63,946 nucleotides of DNA from an uncultured Candidatus Saccharibacteria bacterium (GCA_964510435.1 CAZEBU010000003.1:1-63946), one strand, 5' to 3'; numbered from the stretch's first letter, positions 8,210 through 29,551 are shown. Notes: generated by a model from the letters alone, not told the origin. Translations and numbers: made by a program.

Positions 8210-8419
8210 ATGACTGGATATCAGATAAATGAAAAAGATATTGATGGGATGCTTGATTTTCTCAAAGTAACCGATCCTGATAATGCTACGCTGGAAATGG
8301 CCATAGAGTTATTGGAATATCTCAAGGCACGCTTCCATACTATGGCTCATGAGAACCCAGAGGAATTAGAAAAACTCTACGAGGAGCTAAAGAAACAAAA
8401 AGAGTTGAAAAAGAATTAG
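8210..8419 (+). CDS. hypothetical small acidic helical protein (69 aa)
   Basis: ORF only. It overlaps the HTH gene 3' end convergently by 4 nt. Confidence 0.4.
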   Translation: MTGYQINEKDIDGMLDFLKVTDPDNATLEMAIELLEYLKARFHTMAHENPEELEKLYEELKKQKELKKN

Positions 8420-8637
8420 TAAGGTAAAATACTTGAGGATTTGACACCAAGGGCCCTAACTAGTTTGAGTAAGGTTATCACAGATAAACTAGCTTCCCCG
8501 CGCTCCACTTTGGCATAATAATTGCCATTAATACCTGCTTTTCTGGCAACCTGCTGTTGTGTCAGGTTTTGTTTGAGCCTAGCTGTTTTGAGTTTGTCGG
8601 CAATTGAATCTAGTGTTTTTTTATCCGTTTTCATCAT
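8416..8637 (-). CDS. XRE-family helix-turn-helix transcriptional regulator
   Basis: LTQQQVARKAGINGNYYAKVERGE is a Cro/CI-type HTH. The start was chosen at the MMKTDKK methionines. It is divergent from the recombinase operon. Confidence 0.7.
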   Translation of the reverse strand: MMKTDKKTLDSIADKLKTARLKQNLTQQQVARKAGINGNYYAKVERGEASLSVITLLKLVRALGVKSSSILPY

Positions 8638-8664
8638 ATGTTTGTAGTATAACACTCTGGATAT

Positions 8665-8976
8665 GTGAATTCCTGGCAAAAACCAAAGCCATTACTCGAG
8701 TATGCTAAGTTAATAATGATGCTTAAACCCATGTCCCATAACAATACTCATGAAAAACCTTTCCTACACTCTCCCCTGGAAACACCTGATGAAGAGAAAC
8801 TTCAAAAGGCAAAGGATATTTTGGGATCGCTATGTGAGCAACTAACTGATGAGCAAATAAAAACCATTATCACAGAAATTCAGTTTTTAACGGACACCTG
8901 GCTGGACGAATTTGAGCGAGAGATATTTAATGGGAAAACCATTCAAGAGTTGTTATCCGAGGAGATCCTGTTGTGA
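8665..8976 (+). CDS. hypothetical protein coupled to the serine recombinase (start uncertain; alternative ATG at 8716)
   Basis: Its stop overlaps the recombinase GTG start (GTGA). Confidence 0.4.
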   Translation: MNSWQKPKPLLEYAKLIMMLKPMSHNNTHEKPFLHSPLETPDEEKLQKAKDILGSLCEQLTDEQIKTIITEIQFLTDTWLDEFEREIFNGKTIQELLSEEILL

Positions 8977-10439
8977 GAAAAAATAATACTGTTATATATT
9001 TGAGAGTTTCCACCGATGAGCAGATTGATAATTTTTCTCTGGAAACACAGCTGGAAATCTGCCAAAACGAAGCAGATCGTCGGAAATTAGAAGTTGTAAA
9101 AATATTTCGAGAAGAAGGTAAATCTGCCAAGAATATTACTGGCAGACCCACGCTGGTTCAATTGCTAGCGTATTGCCGCAAAAACAAAAATAGTGTTGTA
9201 GCTGTAATTGTTTATCGTATTGATCGCCTATCTCGTCAAATTGCAGATTATTTGGCTATTCGCAAAAAACTGTCAGATAGTGGGGTCACTTTATATTCTG
9301 CCACAGAGCCTACGGGAGATAGTCCTACAGAAAAGCTGGTGGAGACAATGCTGGCTGGGTTTGCTCAGTTAGACAACGATATTAGATCTGAACGATCCAG
9401 CAACGGAATGAAAGCAAGATTTTTGGCAGGACATTGTAATGGTAAACCCCCTTTGGGTTATTTAATGAAGGATAAGGTGGTAGTCAAGGATCCGGAAACT
9501 TGGGACAAGGTAAAAGCATCCTGGGATTTAATGGCTACAGGCACAAAAAGTCTTAAAGACATGGCTAATTATATGAATGACCTAGGATTGCGCCATAAAC
9601 GTAGAGCAAAATCTTTCAGGATCAGGCCTCAATCGGCAGGCCGAATATTTCGACACAAGTTTTATACCGGTATATTAACTTCTAAGACTTATAAACTGGA
9701 GGTTCAAGGGCAACACTCACCCATGATCTCCCAAGCTCAATTTGATGAAGTTCAAGACATTTTGGATGGTAGGAATGTTAGAAATATTCCAGCGCAAAGA
9801 AAAGTAAGAGATAATACAGATTTCCCTCTTAGAAGAATTGTTAAATGTGGAAAGTGTGGCAGTGGTTTGACGGGAGCTTGGAGTAAGGGCAGAAAAGCAA
9901 AATATCCCTACTATCGATGTGGCAAACCATGTAACAGCAAATCTATTCGCTGGCAAGATGTGCATAATGAGCTAATTAATGTTCTCAGGAGCATTGAAGT
10001 AAAACCACAGACCAAGGCATTATTTGAATATTGCTTTGCTTCTACGTTCAAGGCTAGGAAAGAAGTGCTACAACAAAGAAAAAAACGCGTAAACGCTGAT
10101 ATTAGCAAATTTAAAGAATCAAAGAAGACAATTGTTAAGAAAAATCTTGCAGGAATATATTCTGATGAGATTTACAAAGAGCAAATGGCAATGGTAGCCT
10201 CCAAGTTGAACAGATTGACTATGCTCAAACAAGAACAGATCTACAAACAATATGACTTGACGAAACTAAATATAATGCTCGGCAAGAAACCAAAGCGGCT
10301 AGATAAAACCTACCAAGAACTATCCCCCAGTCAAATACGTGTATTTATTAGCTTGGTTTTTCAGGAGGGTTTGACTTGGGAGTATGAGGGAAAGCTGAGG
10401 CGTAAGGTGATTAATTTATGGGAAGATATAGAAAATTGA
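8973..10439 (+). CDS. large serine recombinase (integrase) 1
   Basis: VIYLRVSTDEQ (catalytic Ser), YRIDRLSR, a recombinase domain, a zinc-ribbon CGKCGS..YYRCGKPC and a coiled-coil tail. Confidence 0.9.
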   Translation: MRKNNTVIYLRVSTDEQIDNFSLETQLEICQNEADRRKLEVVKIFREEGKSAKNITGRPTLVQLLAYCRKNKNSVVAVIVYRIDRLSRQIADYLAIRKKLSDSGVTLYSATEPTGDSPTEKLVETMLAGFAQLDNDIRSERSSNGMKARFLAGHCNGKPPLGYLMKDKVVVKDPETWDKVKASWDLMATGTKSLKDMANYMNDLGLRHKRRAKSFRIRPQSAGRIFRHKFYTGILTSKTYKLEVQGQHSPMISQAQFDEVQDILDGRNVRNIPAQRKVRDNTDFPLRRIVKCGKCGSGLTGAWSKGRKAKYPYYRCGKPCNSKSIRWQDVHNELINVLRSIEVKPQTKALFEYCFASTFKARKEVLQQRKKRVNADISKFKESKKTIVKKNLAGIYSDEIYKEQMAMVASKLNRLTMLKQEQIYKQYDLTKLNIMLGKKPKRLDKTYQELSPSQIRVFISLVFQEGLTWEYEGKLRRKVINLWEDIEN

Positions 10440-10480: not shown

Positions 10481-11401
10481 TTAAAGCTTTTTGTCAAATG
10501 CCTCTAGTTCAGAAATATCTTTATGTTCTGTTATGTTGCTCACTTTTCTTTCAAAAGAAAACTCCTGTAAACCATCACTATATTTTGATGTGATAAATAA
10601 TTCAAAACTTAACTTTGAAGATTTCGAGTCTATGTAAATTCCTTCATTAATAAGCAAAATCGGTCGTCCCTTCTTTAAATCTCGTAAATTACAGCTTATA
10701 GATTTAGTGCTGTACTCAAGATTTGTCCTATACATCTCTCTTTCCCGAGTGTCTATACGCCCGAGAAAAGAAAATATATCTTTAGCTGGATCTGAAGGTA
10801 ACCAAGGACAATTTAAATCATGAACGCTAGCTATGCTTCCCGTTTTTAAGATAAATTCAACAGATATTTTTTCATCAAATTTATTAGATTCAAGTTTGAT
10901 GAAAATTCCAACCAAATACCTACTCTTATTGTAGAAAGATCGTAACTCGTCTTTGTAGTCCTTCAAAGATTGAATGTACTCCAAATTACTCTCTTGTGTT
11001 TTATGCCTACGAAATCCAACGGAGGCAAGTCTGCCAAATATACCTGCAGAAGGTAGAGTAGGTGTTTCACCTTCTAATATTTTAATCTGTTTATCGATTG
11101 CCTTAAGATGCTCATCAATTCTAATTTTAAAATATTCAGGTGTAACAGTAAATTTTGTCTTTTTGCTTTGTAAAGATTGCAGTGCCAAGTGCTCTTTTCT
11201 CCAGGTTTGATAAATTGCAACAAATACCGCCGACGCTATAAAAAAAGATTTGTAAAAATTTGAAAATTCAAATGATTTTATTGGCTCAGGAAAGTATGTA
11301 TGAAGAAGATCATATAATGTTGGTAGCAAAAGTAGTAATGTTGCCCACTGGAAAATAGTCTTAGAAATAAAAACAAGTAGGTATTTTATCTCTTTTTTCA
11401 T
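10481..11401 (-). CDS. membrane protein (two N-terminal TM helices, 306 aa), last gene of the LexA-SIR2 operon
   Basis: Hydrophobic segments LLVFISKTIFQWATLLLLLP and FFIASAVFVAIY. Only a 3-nt gap after the SIR2 stop. No known domain recognised. Confidence 0.55.
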   Translation of the reverse strand: MKKEIKYLLVFISKTIFQWATLLLLLPTLYDLLHTYFPEPIKSFEFSNFYKSFFIASAVFVAIYQTWRKEHLALQSLQSKKTKFTVTPEYFKIRIDEHLKAIDKQIKILEGETPTLPSAGIFGRLASVGFRRHKTQESNLEYIQSLKDYKDELRSFYNKSRYLVGIFIKLESNKFDEKISVEFILKTGSIASVHDLNCPWLPSDPAKDIFSFLGRIDTREREMYRTNLEYSTKSISCNLRDLKKGRPILLINEGIYIDSKSSKLSFELFITSKYSDGLQEFSFERKVSNITEHKDISELEAFDKKL

Positions 11402-11404
11402 GAC

Positions 11405-12412
11405 TTATGTCTTTAAAGGAAGATTTAATGCACTAAATATTTCAGACAATTCTGGGTTTATTGTTCTTTGGTTACGTGGAAAAATTTGACTGAATCTATA
11501 TGGAAAATAGCCAGCTACCCCATCCCAGATGCTAGTTCCAACTTCATTCGCGCTTCTTATTTGACCCTGACCTCTGTATAAAAGGTTGTCTAGAAATTTT
11601 TCTACATTTTGAGGTGATACGATAAAAAGTTTTAGACCGTTATTCGTGCAAGCATCCGCTAATAACTTGTTTATGTGGGGATCTCTAAATCCATAACCAA
11701 TTATGAGTAATTTCACGTTCCCGGCAGATATAGCTTGTTGAAATAGTACGAAATACCAGTTCAGCAAAGGAATTCTTGCTATTGTATTCATTTTATTGAT
11801 CCCTATTACCTTGCTATCTGCTCCATTAGAAGTTATCCATCTGAGCGATCCATGTAGCTTAACGTAGTATTTTGCGTCTCCCATCTGTGCTTTGAATGTT
11901 TCCAACTCACTCTCAATAGGAAGTTGTTTAAAAGTTTCGGCATCAAGGTCTGAATTGCTCACATCCCCCCAACTGCCAGCATAGTTCATTGATTGAGGTG
12001 TTAAGGGTCTCCAACCAAACCTTTTTTCCATCACCATATCTTGGTTTAAAGTAAAACAAGCATTTGAGGACGCTACGAATCTGTCTAAAAATCTACGAAC
12101 GTCACTAGGGTGAAGGGGTAATGAATCCCATCTGGACTGAATAACTCTATCCATAGAAACATAAGCTTCATTTACTATGTCTTTAAATATCTGAACCTCA
12201 TTCTCTGGAAGTCCACTTCTTTCGTCAAACACATCTGAATAAATTTCTTCAAAATCAAACTGTTTTCTCAATTTGATTTTCAGTTGTCCAGCATCATTTA
12301 ATTTTGGATTATTAAAAATCCAAGACCACATTTCTCTGGCCAAAAAGCCACCGAAATTAGCTGTAAACCCTGCGCCTGTCAAAAGTAAGGTGTTTCCAAA
12401 AGCAATTGTCAT
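11405..12412 (-). CDS. SIR2-like (SIR2_2 family) protein, putative NAD+-consuming effector
   Basis: LLLTGAGFT (GAGxS/T), FTLNQDMVMEK (catalytic Asn region), YVKLHGSLRW (catalytic His) and LLIIGYGFRDPHIN. Confidence 0.75.
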   Translation of the reverse strand: MTIAFGNTLLLTGAGFTANFGGFLAREMWSWIFNNPKLNDAGQLKIKLRKQFDFEEIYSDVFDERSGLPENEVQIFKDIVNEAYVSMDRVIQSRWDSLPLHPSDVRRFLDRFVASSNACFTLNQDMVMEKRFGWRPLTPQSMNYAGSWGDVSNSDLDAETFKQLPIESELETFKAQMGDAKYYVKLHGSLRWITSNGADSKVIGINKMNTIARIPLLNWYFVLFQQAISAGNVKLLIIGYGFRDPHINKLLADACTNNGLKLFIVSPQNVEKFLDNLLYRGQGQIRSANEVGTSIWDGVAGYFPYRFSQIFPRNQRTINPELSEIFSALNLPLKT

Positions 12413-12423
12413 AATTTACACTT

Positions 12424-12732
12424 TCATTTTTTCCTTTTCTCTTTAGCCATCTTTAACCTAAAATCTGCATTCAGTTTTTGAGCACCTTGCTTTAGGGATT
12501 TCAATTGAGAGTCATCGCCTTTTAGGCTAGTGGGGGTTTCAACCTCTCCTATCATTTTTATTTTGCTACCTTGTTTGACCATAACATCAGGGATCTTCCC
12601 ATGAACAGGATCTGGTTTATTGTATCCTGGTAAATCAGCAAGCACCGTTTTACCCGGTCCTTTAAGCCTGTTGGCCCACTGGCTAACTTTTGTATCATGA
12701 GTCTTCTGTCCTCTTTTTGTTCTTAAAGCCAT
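12424..12732 (-). CDS. small basic protein (102 aa), possible minimal PD-(D/E)xK-like fold
   Basis: IPDVMV..x11..IGEVET resembles a D..ExK-type core but lacks the Lys. Its start shares 1 nt with the lexA stop (TAATG). Confidence 0.45.
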   Translation of the reverse strand: MALRTKRGQKTHDTKVSQWANRLKGPGKTVLADLPGYNKPDPVHGKIPDVMVKQGSKIKMIGEVETPTSLKGDDSQLKSLKQGAQKLNADFRLKMAKEKRKK

Positions 12733-13349
12733 TAGTCACCACCACCCTTCAATACATCTACAGCTATACCTTGAACTGTGAAGTCATCAAACATATAAAA
12801 TGGTTTATTTTTGTCATTATCAGATTCTGGCATAAGTTTTATACACCCTTCACCTTCTACCATTTTTTTAACTGTTGCATCATCGCCAATCAATGCAACA
12901 ACTCGAGAGCCAAAGTCTGCGGTTGGTTGTTTTTTTACCAAAACACAGTCTCCATCATCGATCGTTTTATCATTGATATTTGATTTATTCATACTATCGC
13001 CAGTTGCACGTAGGAAAAAATAATCATCGGCATCACCCTGAAGTTTCGAGCTGTCATATGGAACATAAGCCTCAACATTTTCTATAGCTAATAGTGGAGT
13101 GCCTGCTGAAATCTGACCTACCAGGGGAATTTGAACTTTCTCACTGTCTTTGATAAGTGAAATACCTCGTGAATCAACCAGGTACCCCTTTCTTTTCAAC
13201 TCATCGGTATGCCGTTGAACAGAACTAAGGCTGGTGTAATTTAACAATTTCCTTATCGCTTCCAGAGTAGGTGAAATACCGTTTTTATGTGCATAATCTC
13301 GAATTGCTACTAGTACTTCTTTTTGCTTTGATGTTAGTTGCCTGTCCAT
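12732..13349 (-). CDS. lexA: LexA repressor (S24 peptidase)
   Basis: N-terminal LexA wHTH (LTSKQKEVL..GISPTLEAI..KGYL), Ala-Gly cleavage site in VGQISAGTP, Ser nucleophile in GDSM and Lys in ATVKKM. Confidence 0.9.
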   Translation of the reverse strand: MDRQLTSKQKEVLVAIRDYAHKNGISPTLEAIRKLLNYTSLSSVQRHTDELKRKGYLVDSRGISLIKDSEKVQIPLVGQISAGTPLLAIENVEAYVPYDSSKLQGDADDYFFLRATGDSMNKSNINDKTIDDGDCVLVKKQPTADFGSRVVALIGDDATVKKMVEGEGCIKLMPESDNDKNKPFYMFDDFTVQGIAVDVLKGGGD

Positions 13350-13356
13350 GCGTAGT

Positions 13357-13526: not shown

Positions 13527-13943
13527 TCAGGCCGAGTTTATAAAGTCAATAACTCTTTTAATCTCTTTGGAAAACCAGTTTTTATTATTTAACTCGCATT
13601 CCCACAATACTAATATCTCCCATCCCAAGCTTTTTAGTTTGATGATGTTTGCCTTGTCTCTTTTTTTGTTTCCAAGTAGTTTTTCTTTCCAAAACTTCTT
13701 ATTAGTTACAGGTAGCATGGCTTTTTTACAGTTATGTTGATGCCAAAAACACCCATGCACAAATATGGCAATCTTTTTTTCAATAAAAACAATATCGGGT
13801 CTTCCTGGAAGTTTATAGTGTATGCGATATCTCATGCCCTCAGCAAAAAAAGCTTTTCTTACGCTAAGTTCCAAAGCCGTGTCTTTTCCCTTTACTCGGG
13901 ACATATTCTTACTTCTTTGTCTTTTGGTAATCCTATCCGCCAT
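13527..13943 (-). CDS. vsr: very short patch repair endonuclease
   Basis: RSKNMSRVKGKDTALE, PGRPDIVF, AIFVHGCFWHQH and WECEL. The start was trimmed to MADRITK (the ORF-track 5' extension overlaps the methylase gene). Confidence 0.9.
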   Translation of the reverse strand: MADRITKRQRSKNMSRVKGKDTALELSVRKAFFAEGMRYRIHYKLPGRPDIVFIEKKIAIFVHGCFWHQHNCKKAMLPVTNKKFWKEKLLGNKKRDKANIIKLKSLGWEILVLWECELNNKNWFSKEIKRVIDFINSA

Positions 13944-13986
13944 ACTGTATTTTTGTATTATAATAGATTTATTGAAGTAACATCCT

Positions 13987-14991
13987 ATGAAAAACAAAAA
14001 CACCGCACATACATTTACATTTATTGACCTTTTTGCAGGGATCGGAGGTATTAGGATTGCTTTTGAAAAAGTGGGGGGAAAGTGTTTATTTACGTCCGAA
14101 TGGGACAAATATTGCCAAGAAACATATCATAAGAATTTCGGTGAAATACCCCATGGAGATATAAGAAAAATAGACATTTCCGATATTAAAGATCATGATG
14201 TTTTGCTGGCAGGATTCCCTTGTCAAGCTTTTTCTATAGCAGGTAAACGCGGTGGTTTCGAAGACACTAGAGGTACATTGTTCTTTGAGACTGCAAAAAT
14301 AATAAAGGAAAAACAACCTAAAGCTTTTTTCTTAGAAAACGTCAAGGGACTAGTTAACCACAGAAGCGGGCAGACTCTTTCAACAATACTTAATGTTTTA
14401 AGAAATGAATTGGGTTACTTTGTACCAGAACCTAAAATAGTGAATGCTAAGGATTTTGGAGTTCCTCAAAACAGAGAAAGAATATTTATTTTAGGTCTCA
14501 GGCAAGACTTAGGCATAAAAGACTTTAACTACCCCAAGCCTTTAGTTACAGAAGTCAAGATAAAGGATATTTTGGAAAAAAATCCCGTATCAGTTAAATA
14601 TTATCTATCAAATCAATATCTTGAGTCGCTTAGAAAACACAAGAGAAGACACGAAAGCAAAGGTAATGGATTCGGTTACGAAATACTTAATGAAAATGGA
14701 ATAGCTAATGCCCTGGTAGTAGGTGGTATGGGGCGCGAAAGAAACCTCATAATAGATACCCAGTTAAAAAACTTTACTCCTGTAACAAACATAAAGGGAG
14801 AGGTTAATCGGGAGGGAGTAAGAAGACTAACTCCACGGGAGTGCGCACGTCTTCAAGGATTTCCCGAAAGCTTCGACATCCCCGTTTCGGATGCACAAGC
14901 CTATAAACAATTCGGTAACTCTGTTGCAGTCCCCGCTGTACATGCAACTGCCAAAAAACTAGTTTATAAGTTGAAAGGGGTACTTGTATGA
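13987..14991 (+). CDS. DNA (cytosine-5)-methyltransferase
   Basis: Motif I FIDLFAGIGG, motif IV GFPCQAFS, ENVKGL, QNRERIF, TPRECARLQGFP and GNSVAVP. Confidence 0.92.
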   Translation: MKNKNTAHTFTFIDLFAGIGGIRIAFEKVGGKCLFTSEWDKYCQETYHKNFGEIPHGDIRKIDISDIKDHDVLLAGFPCQAFSIAGKRGGFEDTRGTLFFETAKIIKEKQPKAFFLENVKGLVNHRSGQTLSTILNVLRNELGYFVPEPKIVNAKDFGVPQNRERIFILGLRQDLGIKDFNYPKPLVTEVKIKDILEKNPVSVKYYLSNQYLESLRKHKRRHESKGNGFGYEILNENGIANALVVGGMGRERNLIIDTQLKNFTPVTNIKGEVNREGVRRLTPRECARLQGFPESFDIPVSDAQAYKQFGNSVAVPAVHATAKKLVYKLKGVLV

Positions 14992-16110: not shown

Positions 16111-16317
16111 TTGGACGATAAACAAAAAGAATTTCTCGATTTAGTTTCATCCAAGTATGCAGAGAAAGGTTTGGATGAAGAGAAATTGCTGGTGTTGTTG
16201 AACTTGAAGTACCACGCCATCGCAAATGCCGAGCAGGTTTTGGGTGATGTTAGTCAACACCGCTCTGTGTTTATCAACATGCAGGAGGGTTTGTATAGGG
16301 AGTTTTCAGCGGCTTGA
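16111..16317 (+). pseudogene. remnant of a type I restriction enzyme R-subunit C-terminal domain (EcoEI_R_C-like)
   Basis: LLNLKYHAIANAEQVLGDVSQHRSVFINMQEGLY resembles the LKY..a..lG....F..fQ..LY C-terminal signature. Only 68 codons with a TTG start and no upstream helicase part. Confidence 0.45.
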
Positions 16318-17319: not shown

Positions 17320-17321
17320 AT

Positions 17322-19874: not shown

Positions 19875-19879
19875 CCAAG

Positions 19880-22980: not shown

Positions 22981-23757
22981 CTAATTTTCTTCCACCTTTT
23001 CCCAAACATCCCCTTGCAACTCACTATCCTTAACTATTTCCTTGGTGGTCAGAAAAAAATCAATCTCGTCTTCTGCTTCTTCCTCTAATACCTGGGCAAT
23101 GTGTTTGTGTAAAAAGGTCTTGATAGTTTCATTAGGACACACAAAAAGCAACTTTGGGTCTGGATGGCCTGTTTTCTCCTGCCATGTGCCCTCATCAAAA
23201 TATTCCACATATTGGGCAATTTTGCTCCTGAGCATAAAACGCGGAGTACCTTCGTCAATTATTTCCAAGAAATATCTTTTTGTTTGGTCTTTTGATTCGA
23301 TCGCAATATATGCATCGGGTCTTTTGTAAGGTAAATAGTAATGATTTGATAAATCAGTTTTGGTGAAAAAGTATAGCTTGCTGTTGTTTTTGGTTTGCTT
23401 TTCAAGATAAAAACATATGTTAGCTATAAACAAACAATGTTTTATTAGTCTTTGTGACCTGGTTTTATCTCGATATACACGTTTTAATATATTTTCGTTT
23501 ATATCTGGATGATTTAGTAGTAGCTTTCTGGATTTAGTGGCTAAGCAGTATATAGCAGGTTTGGTGTTTTCTTTGAGCTTTTGTGAATATTTTCTACTGA
23601 TAATGTTTTTATTGGTTAGGTCTTTTAACCATGCATTTATTCGTTTACGGTCTTTGTGGTTTAAAAGTCTTTGAATGTGAGTTCTGTCTAGGAATCTAAA
23701 TCTATATAGCAGGAGAAGTATTTGAAATTGTTTAGGTGTAATTTTTAGGTTTTCCAT
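22981..23757 (-). CDS. replication-relaxation family protein
   Basis: ITPKQFQILLLLYRFRFLDRTHIQRLL..RINAWLKDLTNKNIISR fits the Replic_Relax N-terminal wHTH pattern. Confidence 0.6.
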   Translation of the reverse strand: MENLKITPKQFQILLLLYRFRFLDRTHIQRLLNHKDRKRINAWLKDLTNKNIISRKYSQKLKENTKPAIYCLATKSRKLLLNHPDINENILKRVYRDKTRSQRLIKHCLFIANICFYLEKQTKNNSKLYFFTKTDLSNHYYLPYKRPDAYIAIESKDQTKRYFLEIIDEGTPRFMLRSKIAQYVEYFDEGTWQEKTGHPDPKLLFVCPNETIKTFLHKHIAQVLEEEAEDEIDFFLTTKEIVKDSELQGDVWEKVEEN

Positions 23758-23954: not shown

Positions 23955-24665
23955 ATGTCAGACTCCGATATACAGGCAGTATCAAAAGCAGCAGCAGAAG
24001 CGTCAAAATTTGGGACTAAGGCGTTAGATACCACGGATAAAATACTCAAATTTATAGCACGGGTATTTAGTGAACCTATTCAAGAAACTTCAGGGATGCT
24101 TGGCGACAGCATGAAGTATCTAAGATGGAAGAGGCAAATTAGAATAGTAGATAGAGTAAATAGCATTTTGGAAGAGAGAGGAGTTGAGAAAACAACTCCA
24201 ATACCACCTAAATTTGCAATTCCAATGTTACAAAATGCCAGCCTAGAAGATGAGAATTATCTTCAAAATATTTGGATCAGACTAATTTCTAACAGCATGG
24301 ATCCCGATTTTGAAGGAGAGTTGAGATTTGCTTTTATTGAAATAATTAAAAGCTTAAACTCACTTGATGCAACAATATTAGATTTCTTTTATAGCACACT
24401 TAAAAAAGATTCAAAAGTTGATTGGGGGCAAATTACAAGTTATTCCTTGACCAAAGAGCAGATTTGTAAGGAATTGGATCTTGATGTAAGTGATTATTTT
24501 GTAAGTATTTATAATTTATTCAGAGTTCAGTGTCTAGCCCCAGCAATATTTAAGGGTGGAGTCAAAATGGGAAACGAAAGTCTTACCGTTTATAAGGGAG
24601 CCGATGCTGTTACATTAACTCCTCTAGGGAAGAATTTTATTAAAATGTGTATTGCTACTAATTAG
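23955..24665 (+). CDS. Abi-alpha (DUF4393) family protein
   Basis: LRWKRQIRIVDRVNSILEERGV..PIPPKFAIPMLQNASLEDENYLQNIWIRLISN matches the Abi_alpha pattern as I recall it. Confidence 0.6.
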   Translation: MSDSDIQAVSKAAAEASKFGTKALDTTDKILKFIARVFSEPIQETSGMLGDSMKYLRWKRQIRIVDRVNSILEERGVEKTTPIPPKFAIPMLQNASLEDENYLQNIWIRLISNSMDPDFEGELRFAFIEIIKSLNSLDATILDFFYSTLKKDSKVDWGQITSYSLTKEQICKELDLDVSDYFVSIYNLFRVQCLAPAIFKGGVKMGNESLTVYKGADAVTLTPLGKNFIKMCIATN

Positions 24666-27382
24666 GGTAAAACTTTAGAGTTCTGGTTTTTTACTGATTT
24701 TTTCTTCTTTGATACTTTTGCTCTTTTTTGTTGGGTCTTAATTGTGTTTTCAGGTTTATATTTTGTTGCATAGTTTTGTCTTGATGATGCAATCAATCGA
24801 TCTACTATTTTTATGTCCTTCCCCCTGCCCATTGGAATCGTTTCCCCTGAAAATGGCTCTTCTGGCTCAACTGCTGCAAGCCTGATATAAAACCTGTATC
24901 TTGGCAAGTTGTTGATATCCCCTACGTCAGCATATGGCTTGAACTGATCTGCCATGAGTTTGGCATCTATTGGGCTGGCAGTTCTAAAACAAATAACCGT
25001 ACCTGTGTTAGCCAAGATAACATTTACTACATTTCGATCATCTTGTTGCGCTGTGGATTGTTCTGCAATGGTCACGCGCAAGCCAAACTTTCGTCCACCT
25101 GACAATAGTTTGGTAAATGATGAAGTAGCGAAATTTTGAAACTCGTCTACAAATACGTAAAAGGGTTTGCGCTTCCCCCCACCTTGACGTTCTCTGCGCA
25201 TAGCAGCTTGTTGGATTTTGGTAATAATGGTTGTACCAAGTAATTGAGAAGTGTCTTCTCCAAGTTTTCCCTCGCCTAGGTTGCAGATCATTATCTTGCC
25301 GGATCCCAAAATCTCATTAAAGTTAATTGTTGATTTTGGTTGTTCTAGGATTCTTTTAGCGGAAGGTGAAAAGAGAAAGCGACCGATCTTGGCGGTAACA
25401 CCTGAAACCATCTTAACTATTTGGAAGTTGCCGGCTTTCCCAAATTCATTTTTCCAAAAGTTTTTTAGGTTCTCATCCGCTAGGTTTCTTGTAGTTCGCT
25501 TTCTAAACTTAGGATTATTGAGCAACTCATAAACTGTAAAGATAGTTGCATCCGGAATTGTAAAAGCTGTGTAGATAGCGTTTCTTAATATATATTCAAT
25601 CCTGTGAGCATTGGCTTTTTCGTCATTGCTAAAAATTCTTCTAAAAATAGATATAACACCCTCACAAACCATTTCTTTTTCTTGCTCAAGTGTGTCTCCC
25701 TCTAAATCCTGAGGTAGTTCCAATAGATTAATGCCAATAGGGTAACTTAAGTCGAAAGGGTTGAAATAAATGCAGTCCGCTATTCTTTCTTTTGGAATTG
25801 TGGCCAACAAATCCTCTGCCAAATCTCCATGAGGGTCTACAACTGCAACACCCCTGCCTTTTCGAATATCGTCTTTAGCCATGTGGTAAATGATGGTAGT
25901 TTTTCCCGATCCCGTCTGACCTAGGATATATACATGTCTAGAGCGGTCTTCATCGGTTAAGCCAATGTCTACCTGAGAGTTAGCATAGGTGTTTTTTCCA
26001 AATACTACGTCAAGATTACTATTATTTTTGACCGACAGCGGTGCTGGCAATTCCTTGCTATGTACTTTCGCAAGATCCTCCACTCTAGTTGATTGAGTAT
26101 TGGGGAAATGATACAGGTCAGATAATTCGGATGCAGAAAAGATGCTGACTACTGCTGTGGAGTGATTGCGCGCCTTTAAGCCGTGCAATAGTACTTTCTT
26201 GAGTATTGGCAACCTAAATAAGTCTAAATGTTTAACAGGAGTAATTGCTTGATGACTGTTTCTATAGGTGGCAAAAGAAGCGCTCAAGCCACGTTCACGA
26301 TCTTTCTGTGCTTTGGGTGAGCTGGTTTTAATTAGCGCCCGAATGGCAACTTCATACAAAGGCTGTTCAAGCTTTTTCTTTATTTGCTCTAGTAGTTTTT
26401 CTTGTCCTTTTGTGTGATGGACTGGTTTTTTGTATTTTCGAAGGAGATATCTGGCAAGATAGAATGCTACGAGTAACCAGCTGAAAATTATGAACAAAAC
26501 TATTCTCATTAGCCATGTCAAAGTAACATTTAACGGGGTTTGTTTTGACAATGATTTAATACTTTCAAAAACGGGACTGTCATCAATAATTTGACTCAAT
26601 AAGTCGTTTTGCACTTTGGTCATTTTTTTACCCGCCGGATGAAGAACAAATTGCAATAACAAAAGTTCGTTATCAGCTAGTTTTCCCATCATGCCGACCA
26701 TATAGGCAATTGGATCTTGTTTCTCCAACTCGTTTTGGGTTCTTAGTGGAAGCGGAAAAGGTTGTGTTTGTCCGTATTCCTTAAGTACATAGTTTTGGCT
26801 TGTGAGTTCGTCCAGTGAATCTGGGAGATAGTCTTTAATTTTGGTAATTTTAAGGTCTGGTAAATGGGCGCGCAGTGCTTTCTGCACAATTTCACTGTTG
26901 CCAATAGGAACTCCTATCACATATCTAATCCCCTCCTTTTTGGTAGAAATAATTTCCAGCGAGTATGCAGACCCTTCATACTTAGATTTGTTCATCCCAG
27001 TAGATGATTGAGCTGTAGAATGCAGGACATTAAATAGTTCTGAGGTGGCTGTTGCGTTTTGTTTATGCGCGTGATGAGGCCGTAGCTCAAAAAACATGAT
27101 ATTTTCGTTTGGGGTTTTTGATCCTCTAAGGACTTTTACAACGATTCGGAGCCAGTTAAAAAAGAAAAAAGCCAAAACAACAACGAAAAAAAGGATAATA
27201 ATCCAAGGCAACACGGCAGATACTTCTGGTCTGATCATGTATAGGAAAAGCTGATCTTTTTGTTCTTGGGAGATAAACGGGGTAATTTGCGCAAAATACG
27301 CAATCACAATCTCGTATATGCCTATTTGCATGGTTTTTAGTTGTGGGTAGCTGTTTAGAACTTCAGTAGGAGATGTCAGCAT
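24662..27382 (-). CDS. type IV secretion coupling-protein-like (TraD/TraG/VirD4/TrwB class) DNA-transfer ATPase
   Basis: N-terminal TM helices, Walker A ILGQTGSGKTT and Walker B FYVFVDEFQNF. 906 aa. Confidence 0.7.
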   Translation of the reverse strand: MLTSPTEVLNSYPQLKTMQIGIYEIVIAYFAQITPFISQEQKDQLFLYMIRPEVSAVLPWIIILFFVVVLAFFFFNWLRIVVKVLRGSKTPNENIMFFELRPHHAHKQNATATSELFNVLHSTAQSSTGMNKSKYEGSAYSLEIISTKKEGIRYVIGVPIGNSEIVQKALRAHLPDLKITKIKDYLPDSLDELTSQNYVLKEYGQTQPFPLPLRTQNELEKQDPIAYMVGMMGKLADNELLLLQFVLHPAGKKMTKVQNDLLSQIIDDSPVFESIKSLSKQTPLNVTLTWLMRIVLFIIFSWLLVAFYLARYLLRKYKKPVHHTKGQEKLLEQIKKKLEQPLYEVAIRALIKTSSPKAQKDRERGLSASFATYRNSHQAITPVKHLDLFRLPILKKVLLHGLKARNHSTAVVSIFSASELSDLYHFPNTQSTRVEDLAKVHSKELPAPLSVKNNSNLDVVFGKNTYANSQVDIGLTDEDRSRHVYILGQTGSGKTTIIYHMAKDDIRKGRGVAVVDPHGDLAEDLLATIPKERIADCIYFNPFDLSYPIGINLLELPQDLEGDTLEQEKEMVCEGVISIFRRIFSNDEKANAHRIEYILRNAIYTAFTIPDATIFTVYELLNNPKFRKRTTRNLADENLKNFWKNEFGKAGNFQIVKMVSGVTAKIGRFLFSPSAKRILEQPKSTINFNEILGSGKIMICNLGEGKLGEDTSQLLGTTIITKIQQAAMRRERQGGGKRKPFYVFVDEFQNFATSSFTKLLSGGRKFGLRVTIAEQSTAQQDDRNVVNVILANTGTVICFRTASPIDAKLMADQFKPYADVGDINNLPRYRFYIRLAAVEPEEPFSGETIPMGRGKDIKIVDRLIASSRQNYATKYKPENTIKTQQKRAKVSKKKKSVKNQNSKVLP

Positions 27383-27476: not shown

Positions 27477-27506
27477 TTGACATTATCCCTCTAGAGATAC
27501 TATACT
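27477..27506 (+). promoter_or_regulatory. promoter TTGACA-N18-TATACT with an overlapping inverted repeat (CCTCTAGAGATA..TATCTCTAAGAGG)
   Basis: Read directly. It lies 30 nt upstream of the small ORF / recombinase 2 operon. Confidence 0.5.
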
Positions 27507-27536
27507 ATCTCTAAGAGGATAGAGGCAAAAACACTT

Positions 27537-27713
27537 ATGGCAAGACTAAAAGGCTCGAAAAATGAAAAGACTCAATCTGGTAGAAGACCATCATCAACAC
27601 TGTCCTCATCTGAGCGTATTCAACTGCTTACAAGTCTTGTAATAGACCGAATCATTCAGGACAAAAACAACGGTTCGCCACTTCTACACAAAATCAGGAG
27701 GGATTATCGATGA
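27537..27713 (+). CDS. small basic protein (58 aa) translationally coupled to recombinase 2
   Basis: MARLKGSKNEKTQSGRRPSS... Its stop overlaps the recombinase start (ATGA). Below the ORF-track cutoff. Confidence 0.4.
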   Translation: MARLKGSKNEKTQSGRRPSSTLSSSERIQLLTSLVIDRIIQDKNNGSPLLHKIRRDYR

Positions 27714-29551
27714 ATAATATCCCTGCCCTACAAAACGCTGTAGCTGCCATTCGTGTTTCTTCTGTTAAACAAGGCGTTGCTGGCGATTCCCCAGAAGCTC
27801 AAAAAGAACAGATTGGGCAGTTTGCCAAAGCTCACAATTATAAAATAACCAAATTTTTCACTTTCTTAGAATCTGCATCAAAAGAGCAACAGCCCATCCA
27901 AGAAGCTATTGATTATTGTGTTAAGCCAAAAAATGGTGTGCAGGTCTTTATTATCAAATCAATTGATAGGTTTACTCGTGGCGGATCTTATTTGTATGAA
28001 GATCTAAAAATGCAGCTAGAAAAACAAGACGTGCAGCTGATTGATATTTACGGCGTTATTGGGAGTCAACAAATCAACACTTTAGAGCACTTGGGAGTTG
28101 AGTTTAACTGGAGTGTTTATTCGCCTACTAAAAAAGCTGAAATGTTGGAAGCAGAACGGGCAAAAGATGAAATGCGGGACATTATGAGCCGTATGATTGG
28201 GGCCGAAATCCGCTATTCTCGAATGGGATATTGGGTTCGCAGAGCGCCCATGGGCTATATGAACGAAAAAGTAGAAACCCCTAATGGCAAACGAACAATT
28301 CTTAAAGCCCACCCGATCGAATCTATTTGGTTTAAAAAGATGTTTGAACTACGTTGTCGGGGAAACCTAACCGATTACCAAATTGTCGACGAAATAAATA
28401 GATTAGGATTTAAAACTAGAAAACTTGTGCACCGGGATAAACATGATCGCACTAAAATATTGAAAATCAGGGGAGAAAACAAACTAAATGTAAAAAGTTT
28501 TCGCAGATACATCCAAAATCCCCTCTATGCAGGTATCAACCTAGTTAAGTGGACAAAGGATGCTCCTCATAAAGGTCAATTTGAAGGGCTTGTTTCTATA
28601 AAGACTTTTAACAAAGTAAATAAAGGCAAAATCGCAATTATCGAAGAGAAAAATGGCAAGATTAGAATTGAAAAAAAGAAAACTCCAGAATATTTACTTA
28701 AAAAGGGAGTAAGAAATCCCGATTTTCCATATAAACGAGTAGTAATGTGCCCGCACTGTGAAAAACCCCTATACGGCAGCGCCTCCCGAGGCAAATTAGG
28801 TAAATACTACCCTGCTTACCACTGCAACAAACGAGGTCATTATTTTAGAGTGCCAAAAAAGCAATTTGATGAAACTTTACACAAGTTTGTCAAAAATATT
28901 CAGCTAGCCCCCAAATATGTGGAAACACTTATAGAGACTGTTACTAAAGAGTGGGAACGTCGTGAGAAAGAATCAAATAAAGACAAGGTAAATATAGATG
29001 AGCGTATTAACGAACTAAAAATGCAAGCACAACTAGTAGCCGACAAAATACGCTATCTAAACTCTGAGGTTGCCATCAAATATGTGGAAGAAGATCTGAT
29101 AAAAATTGATAAAGAAGTTGAAGATTTGCTAATACAAAAAGAAAAGGAAATAAGCGAAAAACCAGCCGATATTGATGAGGTTATGACCTACGTTAAATAT
29201 TTTCTGGAACACATGGAAGAGTTGCTTATACACGGGGAAGATCCCGAAGCGAGAGCCTTGCATTTTGGGATACTTTTTGACCAAGCCCCAACCTATGAAG
29301 AATTAAATTCTGGAACACCAAAATTAGCCCAAGCTATCAAGCTAAATGAGGTCTTTACAATGTCAAAAGGTTACTTGGCTGGGGGACAGGGATTCGAACC
29401 CCGATCTTCGGGACCAAAGCCCGACGTGCTGCCATTACACCATCCCCCATCAAAATACATGAGCATTAAGCTGCATCATTATACATTAGAAATGAATTAC
29501 CGATCATTAGCTTTCACACTTAAGCACAAGATCATGAGTTTTATTTTCTGA
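27710..29551 (+). CDS. large serine recombinase (integrase) 2; the 3' ~60 codons read antisense through tRNA-Gln
   Basis: AAIRVSSVKQ (catalytic Ser), IKSIDRFTRG, zinc-ribbon CPHCEKP..YHCNKRGH and a coiled coil. The tail GGQGFEPRSSGPKPDVLPLHHPP is the translated tRNA complement. Confidence 0.85.
   Translation: MNNIPALQNAVAAIRVSSVKQGVAGDSPEAQKEQIGQFAKAHNYKITKFFTFLESASKEQQPIQEAIDYCVKPKNGVQVFIIKSIDRFTRGGSYLYEDLKMQLEKQDVQLIDIYGVIGSQQINTLEHLGVEFNWSVYSPTKKAEMLEAERAKDEMRDIMSRMIGAEIRYSRMGYWVRRAPMGYMNEKVETPNGKRTILKAHPIESIWFKKMFELRCRGNLTDYQIVDEINRLGFKTRKLVHRDKHDRTKILKIRGENKLNVKSFRRYIQNPLYAGINLVKWTKDAPHKGQFEGLVSIKTFNKVNKGKIAIIEEKNGKIRIEKKKTPEYLLKKGVRNPDFPYKRVVMCPHCEKPLYGSASRGKLGKYYPAYHCNKRGHYFRVPKKQFDETLHKFVKNIQLAPKYVETLIETVTKEWERREKESNKDKVNIDERINELKMQAQLVADKIRYLNSEVAIKYVEEDLIKIDKEVEDLLIQKEKEISEKPADIDEVMTYVKYFLEHMEELLIHGEDPEARALHFGILFDQAPTYEELNSGTPKLAQAIKLNEVFTMSKGYLAGGQGFEPRSSGPKPDVLPLHHPPSKYMSIKLHHYTLEMNYRSLAFTLKHKIMSFIF
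29376..29449 (-). tRNA. tRNA-Gln (anticodon UUG)
   Basis: Manual cloverleaf: U1-A72, G73, anticodon loop CUUUGGU, T-loop TTCGAAT, encoded CCA. Confidence 0.85.

What the first reader, a model, noticed from the sequence alone, without database searches (positions are those of the whole stretch)
8210..29449. About 21 kb integrated mobilisable element stacked with defence cargo, ending at tRNA-Gln and carrying two large serine recombinases
Seen in sequence:
- Integration and regulation: recombinase 1 (8973-10439) with a divergent XRE regulator, and recombinase 2 (27710-) directly abutting tRNA-Gln.
- Mobilisation: a T4CP-like ATPase, a replication-relaxation protein and an ArdC-like gene.
- Defence cargo: the LexA-SIR2 operon, Vsr/C5-MTase/HpaII-like REase, an HsdR remnant, a retron RT, a DUF2779 nuclease, an SF1 helicase and Abi-alpha.
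- No VirB4/VirB6-type mating-pore genes are present.

Inference: this is an integrative mobilisable element, or two elements accreted in tandem (one per recombinase), rather than a self-transmissible ICE. The left boundary cannot be fixed from sequence because serine recombinases leave only about 2-bp crossover repeats. The PLD nuclease pair (7385-8114) and even the metal ATPase might belong to it.
Basis: partly seen in the sequence, partly recalled or inferred. Interest (0 to 1): 0.65.

Follow-up and report, generated by a model that had tools for sequence, protein, structure and literature searches.

The report
tRNA-targeting serine-integrase mobile defence island
This is a roughly 22 kb mobilisable island full of anti-phage genes, inserted at the very 3' end of a tRNA-Gln gene by a divergent large serine integrase; that integrase belongs to a large, apparently undescribed family that always sits with its own gene end running into a tRNA gene.

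Summary
The island is one element spanning window ~7431-29379, not 8210-29449.

- **Right end.** The rec2 ORF (27710-29551) does not merely abut tRNA-Gln. It reads through the antisense tRNA. In 74 of 87 loci with rec2 homologues, a minus-strand tRNA of ten isotypes starts within 12 nt of the codon equivalent to L556.
- **Crossover.** Identical recombinase 3' ends sit beside three different tRNAs. This places the crossover at the CCA/discriminator end.
- **Left end.** A sharp four-locus homology break fixes it at 7431. A pseudo-tRNA end lies there, with its T-loop motif 5 bp further out than in real tRNAs. That is the known attP-versus-attB half-site rule of large serine integrases.
- **Excised form.** Joining attR to attL in silico fuses rec2 in frame to a conserved ~50-aa tail. 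The tail is under purifying selection and has no start codon of its own in 5 of 6 loci.
- **rec1.** It belongs to a conserved left-end module (tail-PLD-orf69-XRE-orf103-rec1), not to a second accreted element.
- **Transfer genes.** Replic_Relax and a T4CP-like ATPase form the conserved mobility backbone. No mating-pore genes are present.
- **Not informative.** Composition does not differ from the flanks, and no empty site was found.

The parts
7431..7462 (+). attL. The 7-nt core TGGCTGG (7431-7437) is shared with attR. It is followed by the P' arm, a pseudo-tRNA-Gln 3' end (TGGCTGGCGAAGTAGCCCTTAGGTGGAAC) with GAAC at nt 26-29 instead of 21-24.
   Evidence: Homology to L088, L089 and L092 begins exactly here.
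7385..7588 (+). 'orf67'. From 7430 onward it is the detached C-terminal tail of rec2 (MAGEVALRWNTIYPSLYRTYRRLKELGYRYENG...). Its stop codon overlaps the PLD start codon.
   Evidence: In-frame fusion in silico in three elements. The tail is conserved in 6 loci. Sequence differences concentrate at third codon positions. There is no in-frame start codon in 5 of 6 loci. No Pfam family matches.
7581..8114 (+). PLD-like nuclease (PLDc_2), first gene of the conserved left-end module.
   Evidence: Syntenic in L022, L060, L072, L088, L089 and L092.
8210..8419 (+). orf69, a small acidic helical protein of the left-end module. It is a candidate accessory or directionality factor.
   Evidence: No Pfam family matches.
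8416..8679 (-). XRE/HTH_3 regulator.
   Evidence: Homologues occur in 8 rec2-type loci.
8665..8976 (+). orf103, a small ORF coupled to rec1.
   Evidence: Conserved upstream of rec1 in L088-L092.
8973..10439 (+). rec1, a canonical large serine recombinase. It sits at the border between the conserved left module and the variable cargo.
   Evidence: Genomic context.
10481..13349 (-). Four-gene operon: LexA-like S24 repressor (12732-13349), 102-aa ORF (12424-12732), SIR2_2 (11405-12412) and a 306-aa membrane protein (10481-11401).
13527..16070 (.). HpaII-type type II restriction-modification system with Vsr. Vsr is on the minus strand; its Pfam match starts at residue 57, so the likely gene is 13527-13943. 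M.C5 is 13987-14991(+) and R.HpaII is 14988-16070(+).
16111..16317 (+). Remnant of the C-terminus of a type I HsdR (EcoEI_R_C, profile positions 103-163 of 163).
16321..17603 (-). Retron type VI pair: RT (16321-17319) and HTH (17322-17603). The ncRNA was not located.
   Evidence: RT_VI 3e-73, HTH_VI 1e-24. Rfam gave no hit.
18354..21640 (.). DUF2779/Cas4-like nuclease (18354-19874, +) and UvrD/GajB-like SF1 helicase (19880-21640, -).
21842..22393 (+). ArdC-N-like anti-restriction / ssDNA-binding protein, a backbone gene.
   Evidence: Identity of 58-75% in 8 related loci.
22981..23757 (-). Replication-relaxation protein (PF13814), a backbone gene.
   Evidence: Present in 31 of 35 related loci with more than 6 kb upstream. 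PHROG 'replication initiation by nicking'.
23955..24665 (+). Abi_alpha (PDC-S47-like), cargo.
24662..27382 (-). Membrane-anchored T4CP / HerA-FtsK-like ATPase (TrwB_AAD_bind, DUF87, TraG-D_C), a backbone gene.
   Evidence: Present in 26 of 35 related loci, with a median gap of 496 nt to the recombinase.
27537..27713 (+). orf58, a small basic ORF that overlaps the rec2 start by 4 nt. A small ORF occupies the same position in related loci. It is a candidate accessory factor.
   Evidence: Equivalent 57-70-aa ORFs appear.
27710..29551 (+). rec2, a divergent large serine integrase. The family-conserved part ends at L556 (29375-29377). Residues 557-613 are read-through of the antisense tRNA-Gln and host DNA.
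29376..29449 (-). tRNA-Gln(ttg), the host target. The attR core TGGCTGG is 29376-29382, and the B' half-site is the CCA end, acceptor stem and T-arm.

Best explanation
Window ~7431-29379 is a single ~22 kb integrative mobilisable element. It belongs to a family that is abundant in low-GC, candidate-phyla-radiation-type bacteria.

**Integration (inferred).** The integrase rec2, a divergent large serine recombinase, recombined an attP site lying across the 3' end of its own gene with the extreme 3' end of the host tRNA-Gln gene. The crossover lies within, or immediately next to, the antisense CCA/discriminator sequence TGGC. The whole tRNA body therefore stays host-derived and intact. Only a 7-nt core (TGGCTGG) is repeated at the two ends.

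**Site recognition (inferred).** The host half-site (B') is the acceptor/T-arm of the tRNA. The element's half-site (P') is a mimic of that tRNA end, with the T-loop motif moved 5 bp outward. This is the geometry that distinguishes attP from attB half-sites of large serine integrases.

**Tail swap.**
- Shown by in-silico joining: in the excised form the rec2 ORF continues across attP into a conserved ~50-residue tail and then into PLD.
- Shown in the sequence: integration replaces this tail with meaningless antisense-tRNA read-through.
- Inferred: the swap has a regulatory meaning.

**Backbone and cargo.**
- The backbone is the left module (tail-PLD-orf69-XRE-orf103-rec1) and the right module (ArdC-N, Replic_Relax, T4CP-like ATPase, orf58, rec2).
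- Between them lies exchangeable defence cargo: a LexA-SIR2 operon, a Vsr/M/R HpaII-type system, a type VI retron, a DUF2779 nuclease with an SF1 helicase, and Abi_alpha.

**Transfer (inferred).** It would rely on the Replic_Relax protein and the single translocase-like ATPase, using either a helper's pore or an FtsK-like route. No pore genes are on board.
For: **A tRNA at the gene end is a family property.**
- 74 of 87 loci with rec2 homologues have a minus-strand tRNA starting within 12 nt of the L556-equivalent codon: Gln 20, Glu 16, Lys 15, Asn 6, Ser 5, Arg 3, Val 3, Asp 3, Leu 2, Ile 1.
- Homologous proteins align up to '...SKGxLA' and then diverge into antisense-tRNA peptides.

**Crossover position.**
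- L067, L068 and L071 share an identical 80-nt recombinase 3' end but lie beside tRNA-Lys, tRNA-Glu(ttc) and tRNA-Glu(ctc).
- Identity ends after TGGTGA.

**Left end.**
- Homology among the window, L088, L089 and L092 starts abruptly at 7431-7433.
- The same module lies at the far end of the complete elements in L022 (9.7 kb, tRNA-Gln) and L060 (6.6 kb, tRNA-Val).

**The +5 bp geometry.**
- GAAC/T lies at nt 21 in 33 of 40 distinct tRNA ends that begin with TGG. It lies at nt 26 in 9 of the 12 P'-type sites and also at the L097 junction.
- The 5-bp shift of the ZD motif between attP and attB is the published rule (PMC3783163, read).

**The tail.**
- In-frame fusions arise in the window, L022 and L060.
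- Differences fall mainly at third codon positions: 12-19, against 3-9 at positions 1 and 2.
- The frame has 0 stops, against 2-6 in the other two frames.
- No start codon in 5 of 6 loci.

**rec2 is a large serine integrase.**
- Resolvase domain at E 6e-9 and PHROG integrase at 1e-35 over residues 8-504.
- The AF2 model matches full-length serine integrase complexes, Bxb1 and PhiC31 at E 1e-13 to 1e-8.
- The RVSS catalytic serine and the zinc-ribbon C347, C350, H371 and C372 are invariant.

**Backbone.** Of 35 loci with more than 6 kb upstream, Replic_Relax is in 31, T4CP in 26 and both in 24.
Against: - No empty site and no circular form of this particular element was found. The host lineage is barely sampled: the best flank homologue is 59% identical, and the exact-match contigs carry the same arrangement.
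- The contigs with P-O-P' junctions (L066, L069, L072, L082, L097) may be tandem arrays rather than excised circles. L097 clearly is one. Excision is therefore not directly shown.
- The +5 rule was seen in one half-site only. I found no convincing mirror motif in the P or B arms.
- Composition does not set the island apart.
- The AF2 model is of moderate quality (mean pLDDT 61) and the tail of the integrated form is disordered.
- Replic_Relax is not a proven relaxase, and no oriT was identified.
Confidence: 0.8

Rival explanations
1. These are two independent elements accreted in tandem, one mobilised by rec1 (left) and one by rec2 (right).
For: - Two intact large serine recombinases are present.
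- Tandem arrays do occur in this family: L097 has two recombinase-bearing units in series, with the distal recombinase reading into the next unit's P' arm.
- rec1 always sits at the border with the variable cargo.
Against: - rec1 lies inside a module (tail-PLD-orf69-XRE-orf103-rec1) that is conserved as a block in L088, L089/L090 and L092. The homology break, and therefore the att site, lies to the left of the whole block.
- That att arm is a tRNA mimic in frame with rec2, not with rec1.
- The same left module occurs without rec1 in complete rec2-type elements (L022, L060).
- No second att-like junction or tRNA fragment lies between rec1 and rec2.
Confidence: 0.1
2. The island is a fixed, no longer mobile remnant: a domesticated defence island whose recombinases persist without activity.
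For: - No empty site or circle was found.
- Composition equals that of the flanks.
- Some decay is visible: the HsdR remnant at 16111-16317 and possible older relics at 1957 and 2119.
Against: - All backbone genes are full-length, with the catalytic serine and zinc-ribbon residues intact.
- The attL and attR cores and the P' arm are intact and match relatives.
- The tail ORF, which would be useless in a permanently integrated element, is still open and under purifying selection.
- Near-identical recombinases occur at different tRNAs in different samples, so the family moves.
Confidence: 0.12
3. The element is a prophage or phage satellite rather than a conjugation-type element.
For: - Both recombinases match the PHROG integrase family. 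The T4CP-like ATPase weakly matches a PHROG of unknown function and a terminase-like family.
Against: - No capsid, portal, tail or lysis genes were found by Pfam or PHROGs.
- No relative was found in 2.9 million IMG/VR viral contigs.
- The conserved partners are Replic_Relax, a membrane-anchored TrwB/TraG-type ATPase and ArdC-N.
Confidence: 0.04

Closest known systems
Large serine integrases of phages and ICEs (A118/LI, Bxb1, PhiC31, TP901-1)
   Same: - Domain order: N-terminal resolvase catalytic domain with an RVSS-type serine, then recombinase domain, zinc ribbon and long coiled-coil helices.
- Fold matches to full-length integrase-att complexes.
- The attP-type arm carries the distal motif 5 bp further out than the attB-type arm, as in the LI integrase model (PMC3783163).
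   Different: - No sequence-level match to any solved structure, and about 15% identity in the structural alignments.
- The target is the 3' end of tRNA genes of many isotypes. [quoted passage not shown] The large LSR survey does not mention tRNA at all (PMC10083194).
- attP lies inside the integrase ORF, so integration changes the protein's C-terminus.
tRNA-gene genomic islands that use tyrosine integrases (Islander-type islands)
   Same: - Insertion at the 3' side of a tRNA gene that remains functional.
- The integrase gene lies next to the tRNA.
- Cargo-rich islands.
- Serial occupation of one tRNA site.
   Different: - A different recombinase superfamily and different chemistry.
- No displaced tRNA fragment of tens of nucleotides. 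Only a 7-8 nt core is shared.
- The tRNA-like sequence at the far end is a spaced mimic, not a displaced copy.
Integrative mobilisable elements with serine recombinases (Tn4451, streptococcal IMEs)
   Same: - A serine integrase plus a few transfer-related genes, with no mating-pore genes.
- Very short repeats at the ends (review PMC5704250).
   Different: - Those elements insert within dispensable protein-coding genes or have low site specificity.
- The mobility set here is different: Replic_Relax, a DUF8128/TrwB/HerA-type ATPase and ArdC-N.
- The host range here is uncultivated low-GC lineages.
Integration-dependent switches: mycobacteriophage BPs-type immunity (attP inside the repressor gene) and SSV-type archaeal integrases split by integration
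   Same: attP lies inside an element-encoded ORF, so the integrated and excised states encode different C-termini (PMC4557955 and PMC3694055, listed; PMC8371274, listed).
   Different: - Those systems use tyrosine integrases.
- In BPs the switched protein is the repressor. In SSV the integrase is cut in two.
- Here a serine integrase loses only a ~50-residue tail, and any regulatory role is untested.
Actinomycete integrative and conjugative elements (AICEs) (from my own knowledge, not tested here)
   Same: A compact integrase + replication protein + single FtsK/HerA-like DNA translocase layout, inserted at tRNA genes.
   Different: - AICEs mostly use tyrosine integrases and TraB.
- No sequence relationship was tested here.

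Membership tests
Large serine recombinase (rec2) | N-terminal resolvase-type catalytic domain with the nucleophilic serine and conserved arginines | tested here: met
   PF00239 at E 5.7e-9 over residues 11-113. IRVSS and SIDRFTRGG are invariant in 14 homologues.
Large serine recombinase (rec2) | C-terminal recombinase domain, zinc ribbon and coiled-coil | tested here: met
   - Pfam does not detect the Recombinase or Zn_ribbon domains in rec2 itself. PF07508 is on record for some homologues.
- phrog_95 integrase covers residues 8-504.
- C347, C350, H371 and C372 are invariant.
- Helices 403-482 appear in the AF2 model.
- Foldseek matches full-length integrases over 500-590 alignment columns at E 1e-13 to 1e-8, though TM scores are low because of domain flexibility.
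Large serine recombinase (rec2) | attP and attB half-sites with a distal motif offset by 5 bp, and a 2-bp crossover | tested here: inconclusive
   The +5 offset is seen for the P' versus B' arms. The other arms show no clear motif. The crossover dinucleotide cannot be read from sequence beyond a 6-8 nt shared core.
Large serine recombinase (rec1) | Resolvase + Recombinase + Zn_ribbon_recom domains | tested here: met
   All three Pfam domains are above cut-off. Sequence matches to the A118 and Bxb1-type integrase structures.
Integrative mobilisable element (IME) | Own integrase and defined att sites at both ends | tested here: met
   attR at the tRNA end and attL at 7431, fixed by homology breaks and a shared core.
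Integrative mobilisable element (IME) | Relaxase and oriT, or another DNA-processing function | tested here: inconclusive
   A Replic_Relax (PF13814) protein is present and conserved. Relaxase activity is not established for it and no oriT was identified.
Integrative mobilisable element (IME) | Excision to a circle and transfer with a helper | not testable with these tools
   P-O-P' junction contigs exist for relatives, but tandem arrays explain them equally well.
Self-transmissible ICE | VirB4-type ATPase and mating-pore (T4SS) genes | tested here: not met
   No such domains in any ORF of 85 aa or more between 7431 and 29379.
Tyrosine-integrase tRNA island | Tyrosine recombinase and a displaced tRNA fragment as a direct repeat | tested here: not met
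   No tyrosine recombinase was found. No tRNA-Gln fragment of 23-25 nt with 3 or fewer mismatches exists in the window. None lies within 10 kb upstream in related loci.
Retron type VI | RT of clade VI with an adjacent HTH protein | tested here: met
   RT_VI at 3.1e-73 and HTH_VI at 1.2e-24.
Retron type VI | msr-msd non-coding RNA | tested here: inconclusive
   No Rfam hit. The region upstream of the HTH gene is structured (z = -4.4), but it also contains a 71-aa ORF with a strong ribosome-binding site.
HpaII-type type II restriction-modification with Vsr | C5-methyltransferase, RE_HpaII endonuclease and Vsr mismatch endonuclease, adjacent to one another | tested here: met
   PF00145 at 5e-108, PF09561 at 3e-115, PF03852 at 8e-29.

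The most novel reading that the evidence does not exclude
rec2 may represent a large, undescribed clade of serine integrases with three unusual properties.
- They read the universal features of a tRNA 3' end (CCA/discriminator, acceptor stem, T-loop) as their attB half-site.
- They carry a tRNA mimic with a 5-bp spacer as the attP half-site.
- Their own C-terminus is rewired by the reaction they catalyse. The excised form has a conserved ~50-residue tail. The integrated form has a junk tail.

Under this reading the tail swap is a built-in sensor of integration state that biases directionality or stability. The reliance on the tRNA half-site also lets new elements insert next to an already occupied tRNA, building tandem defence islands.
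Probability: 0.35. Interest if true: 0.85.

Novelty: new variant of a known kind. Interest (0 to 1): 0.72.

Why it matters
- **Textbook division.** Tyrosine integrases are said to use tRNA genes and serine integrases to use protein-coding genes. [quoted passage not shown] Here a family with more than 1,600 members at E <= 1e-5 does so consistently. It achieves this with a crossover at the very end of the tRNA, so the gene is never broken.
- **Natural test of the half-site rule.** The att logic can be read directly from sequence: a real tRNA arm against a mimic with 5 extra base pairs. The '5-bp' half-site rule was derived from one phage integrase, so this is an independent case.
- **Candidate switch.** The C-terminal tail swap is a concrete, easily tested candidate for a directionality or occupancy switch that needs no separate factor.
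- **Practical uses.** The family marks the borders of defence islands in poorly known small-genome bacteria. It also offers integrases whose targets, tRNA ends, exist in every genome.

Tried and rejected
- **Direct repeat of the tRNA-Gln 3' half in the window.** Exact and 3-mismatch searches and low-stringency blastn found none of tyrosine-island type. Only a 7-nt core and spaced mimics exist.
- **The same search in 50 related loci, within 10 kb upstream.** Nothing above chance. This led to the spaced-mimic scan.
- **Empty-site search.**
  - The genome-contig scan with the flanking oxidoreductase returned only a 33%-identical Roizmanbacteria hit without tRNAs.
  - The homologue search gave best hits of 59% identity on contigs shorter than 5 kb.
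  - Exact-protein look-ups of the ATPase and the right-flank ORF returned only short contigs with the same arrangement.
  - Exact look-up of rec2 found nothing on record.
- **Viral contigs.** No relative of rec2.
- **Composition.** GC is identical. The tetranucleotide distance is only marginally higher (p = 0.017), and the comparison is biased because the flank windows contribute to the reference vector. It cannot be used for boundaries.
- **rec1 3' end.** I tested whether rec1 has a read-out 3' end or a homology break there. The window and L088 stay similar past the stop codon, while L089 and L092 diverge gradually, so no att site was identified.
- **A weak tRNA-like match inside the rec1 3' end (10319-10341, E = 2.7).** Treated as chance.
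- **Mirror-image motif in the P and B arms.** None was convincing (manual inspection of the sequences).
- **Pfam and PHROG searches of the tail, orf69, orf103 and orf58.** No families.
- **Window arm left of 7431 as a decayed recombinase 3' end, as in L022.** Only 3 of 21 residues match, so this is not claimed.
- **Profile search of rec2 against PDB sequences.** No hit. Fold comparison was needed instead.

Full report
**1. What is in the window**

- Between 7.4 and 29.4 kb lie two large serine recombinases: rec1 (8973-10439) and rec2 (27710-).
- There is an XRE regulator.
- A four-gene minus-strand operon runs LexA / 102-aa ORF / SIR2 / membrane protein.
- A complete HpaII-type restriction-modification system is present, with Vsr.
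- A short remnant of the HsdR C-terminus lies at 16111-16317. Its score is just under the Pfam cut-off.
- A reverse transcriptase and its neighbouring HTH protein best match the PADLOC models for retron type VI.
- There is a DUF2779/Cas4-like nuclease beside a UvrD/GajB-like helicase.
- Also present are an ArdC-N protein, a Replic_Relax protein, Abi_alpha and a 906-aa membrane-anchored T4CP-like ATPase.
- No VirB4 or pore proteins are present.
- tRNA-Gln(ttg) lies at 29376-29449 on the minus strand.

**2. The unexpected feature at the right end**

The rec2 ORF has no stop codon before the tRNA. It reads through the antisense tRNA-Gln and ends at 29551.

This is not an accident of this locus.
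- A homologue search returned more than 1,600 proteins. They are conserved at 56-85% identity up to about residue 556 and then differ in length and sequence.
- In an alignment of 14 of them, conservation stops at '...SKGxLA'. What follows is the translation of an antisense tRNA T-arm ('G-F/L-E-P').
- I fetched 86 loci with homologues from public assemblies and ran ARAGORN on all of them. Counting the window, 74 of 87 loci have a minus-strand tRNA beginning within 12 nt of the position equivalent to L556. The isotypes are Gln 20, Glu 16, Lys 15, Asn 6, Ser 5, Arg 3, Val 3, Asp 3, Leu 2 and Ile 1.
- Most exceptions are contig ends or the junction types discussed in section 5.

**3. Where the crossover is**

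- Three loci from different metagenomes (L067, L068, L071) carry the same recombinase 3' end, identical over 80 nt. They lie next to tRNA-Lys(ttt), tRNA-Glu(ttc) and tRNA-Glu(ctc). Identity ends after TGGTGA, the antisense of the CCA end, the discriminator and the first two acceptor bases.
- The tRNA body is therefore host DNA, and the crossover is at the extreme 3' end of the tRNA gene.
- This explains why no displaced tRNA fragment exists in the window or within 10 kb upstream in relatives.

**4. The left end**

- A tblastn of all window proteins against the loci showed three things. The T4CP and Replic_Relax genes are the common partners of the recombinase. ArdC-N recurs at 58-75% identity. 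The PLD and XRE genes at 7.6-8.7 kb recur together in L022, L060 and L072.
- In L022 and L060 the module (small ORF - PLD - orf69 - XRE) lies at the far end of complete elements of 9.7 and 6.6 kb. Those elements end at tRNA-Gln and tRNA-Val.
- The closest rec1 homologues (65-75% identity) all sit in the same block: small ORF - PLD - orf69 - XRE - orf103 - rec1, followed by different defence cargo.
- Aligning the four loci shows no similarity upstream of window 7431 and 70-80% identity from 7431-7433 onward.
- The first conserved bases, TGGCTGGCGAAGTAGCCCTTAGGTGGAAC, share the 7-nt core TGGCTGG with attR (29376-29382).
- The element is therefore ~7431-29379, about 21.95 kb. PLD is inside it. 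The P-type ATPase (5466-7373) is outside.

**5. The tRNA mimic and the 5-bp rule**

- In real tRNA ends that begin with TGG, the T-loop GAAC/T lies at nt 21 in 33 of 40 distinct sites.
- In the left-end arms it lies at nt 26. This holds for window 7431, L089, L092, L022 and L060. In L088 the motif is mutated.
- It also lies at nt 26 in the arms that follow a recombinase gene without a tRNA: L066, L072, L082 and L097. L069 has it at nt 25.
- The structural study of the Listeria phage integrase showed that the zinc-ribbon-domain motif occupies positions 16-24 of an attP half-site. It sits 5 bp closer to the centre in attB (PMC3783163).
- The observed pair fits this rule: a tRNA arm as B', and a tRNA-like arm with five extra base pairs as P'. 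This is an inference from geometry. I could not find the mirror motif in the other arms.

**6. The tail**

- Relative to TGG, the reading frame of rec2 and that of the 67-codon ORF at 7385-7588 coincide.
- Joining attR-left to attL-right in silico gives in-frame products of 607 residues (window), 602 (L022) and 604 (L060). Each ends in a conserved peptide of the form LAGEvxxRWNxIyPSLxxTYxxLKELGyxYxxG...KKPRKEVYY.
- Among four loci, differences in this stretch fall mainly at third codon positions: 12-19, against 3-9 at the other positions. The frame has no stops, while the other two frames have 2-6.
- In five of six integrated loci there is no in-frame start codon between the upstream stop and the junction.
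- The simplest reading is that this peptide is translated only as the C-terminus of the integrase when attP is intact.
- Its stop codon overlaps the PLD start, so PLD and orf69 would also be coupled to the integrase transcript in that state.
- What the tail does is unknown. No family matches it.

**7. Is rec2 really a large serine integrase?**

- Pfam sees only the catalytic domain, and a profile finds no solved relative by sequence.
- PHROG family 95 (integrase) covers residues 8-504 at 1e-35.
- The catalytic serine and the zinc-ribbon cysteines and histidine are invariant.
- An AlphaFold model (mean pLDDT 61, with good recombinase-domain confidence) matches full-length serine integrase-att complexes, Bxb1 and PhiC31 at E 1e-13 to 1e-8.
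- rec1 is a canonical member.

**8. One element or two?**

- rec1 is inside the conserved left module, whose boundary is the rec2-type P' arm.
- Tandem accretion does nonetheless happen in this family. In L097, one unit (Replic_Relax, T4CP, small ORF, recombinase A) is followed by a second unit (LTD, S24 peptidase, HTH, small ORF, recombinase B). The two are joined by a P'-type arm with GAAC at nt 26. Recombinase B runs into a real tRNA end at the contig edge.
- The distal recombinase thus reads into the next unit's arm. This also explains L022, where the arm left of attL is 84% identical over 69 nt to the 3' end of a recombinase gene.
- For the same reason, the 'attP-like' contigs cannot be taken as proof of excised circles.
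- In the window there are weak hints of older events further left: a second P'-type pseudo-tRNA-Gln end at 2119 (TTCGAAC shifted by exactly 5) and a 10/10 match to the tRNA end at 1957. Host-like genes lie between them and 7431, so I leave this unexplained.

**9. Mobility mechanism**

- Of 35 related loci with more than 6 kb upstream, 31 have Replic_Relax, 26 have the ATPase and 24 have both. The ATPase is nearly always divergent from the recombinase, at a median gap of 496 nt.
- The conserved core is therefore integrase + small ORF + ATPase + Replic_Relax, sometimes with ArdC-N. No pore genes are present.
- This makes the element mobilisable rather than self-transmissible. It would use either a helper's pore or an FtsK/HerA-like single-protein route. 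This step is inferred.

**10. What could not be shown**

- No empty site or circle was found for this element.
- Composition is uninformative.
- The host is only inferred to be a candidate-phyla-radiation-type bacterium, from names attached to relatives (WWE3, Levyibacteriota, Roizmanbacteria).

**11. Literature**

- Within the library I could search, serine integrases are stated not to specify tRNA genes (PMC4383910).
- A survey of thousands of large serine recombinases does not mention tRNA (PMC10083194).
- Reviews place serine-recombinase mobilisable elements inside protein-coding genes (PMC5704250).
- Recent island resources do not report otherwise.
- Searches combining serine recombinase, tRNA and candidate-phyla terms found nothing relevant.
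- Integration-dependent changes of a protein's C-terminus are known for tyrosine-integrase systems.

**12. Verdict**

The interpretation as a mobilisable defence island is right.
- The boundaries can be set at ~7431 and ~29379, and it is one element with two recombinases.
- The integrase family, its tRNA-end targeting, the spaced tRNA mimic and the tail swap make this a new variant of a known kind and well worth an experiment.

Noticed in passing
window 1957-1966 and 2119-2149: There are two further tRNA-Gln-3'-end-like sequences left of the element. TGGCTGGGGG is a 10/10 match to the tRNA end. TGGCTGGGCGTTAGGGAACAAGTTCGAAC is a pseudo-tRNA arm with TTCGAAC shifted by exactly 5 bp, as in attP-type arms. 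They may be relics of older insertions at the same tRNA.
   Followed up: partly
window 584-863 vs 4964-5242; 3480-3531 vs 5232-5283: A GIY-YIG gene is duplicated at 74-81% identity. A 52-nt sequence that follows copy 2 recurs at 90% identity after the AbiEii gene. This suggests that 864-3479, which includes an AbiEi/AbiEii pair at 2211-3459, was inserted next to copy 1.
   Followed up: no
L097 1-12860: This contig is a tandem array of two recombinase-bearing units at one tRNA. Recombinase A (70% identical to rec2) reads into the attP-type arm of the next unit. Recombinase B (33% identical to A) runs into a real tRNA end at the contig edge.
   Followed up: yes
L022 1918-1986 vs 11607-11675: A 69-nt direct repeat at 84% identity links the arm left of attL to the 3' end of the element's own recombinase gene. 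It looks like the last trace of a displaced older element.
   Followed up: partly
L069 887-4054: A rec2-like gene and a second large serine recombinase (27% identical to rec1) converge. Their 3' ends overlap by ~56 nt, right over an attP-type arm.
   Followed up: no
L028 / L029 (rec 3' end and +84 nt): The recombinase abuts a tRNA-Gln 3' fragment, and a complete tRNA-Gln follows 84 nt downstream. This is a different junction type from all the other loci.
   Followed up: no
L067, L068, L071 (also L081 / L086): The same recombinase 3' end, identical over 80 nt, is found next to tRNA-Lys, tRNA-Glu(ttc) and tRNA-Glu(ctc) in different samples. One integrase variant therefore uses several tRNA isotypes that share TGGTGA and the T-arm.
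   Followed up: yes
window 10481-13349 (minus strand); L089 9871-10488; L097 8605-9255: A LexA-like S24 repressor heads the SIR2 operon in the window. S24 or LexA-like genes also recur in the cargo of related elements, next to type I R-M/SduA and LTD-domain genes. This suggests damage-responsive control of defence cargo.
   Followed up: no
window 17604-18353: The retron ncRNA was not found. Upstream of the retron HTH gene lies a 71-aa ORF (17662-17877, minus strand) with a strong ribosome-binding site, within a structured region (z = -4.4).
   Followed up: partly
window 46186-51006: A cluster of six tRNA genes (Phe, Gly, Leu x2, Lys, Arg), all on the minus strand, lies in the host flank. None has an adjacent recombinase.
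   Followed up: no
L034 402-7172: This may be a minimal element of 6.8 kb (ArdC-N, Replic_Relax, T4CP, recombinase) at tRNA-Lys. It has a candidate left arm with the motif at nt 27.
   Followed up: partly
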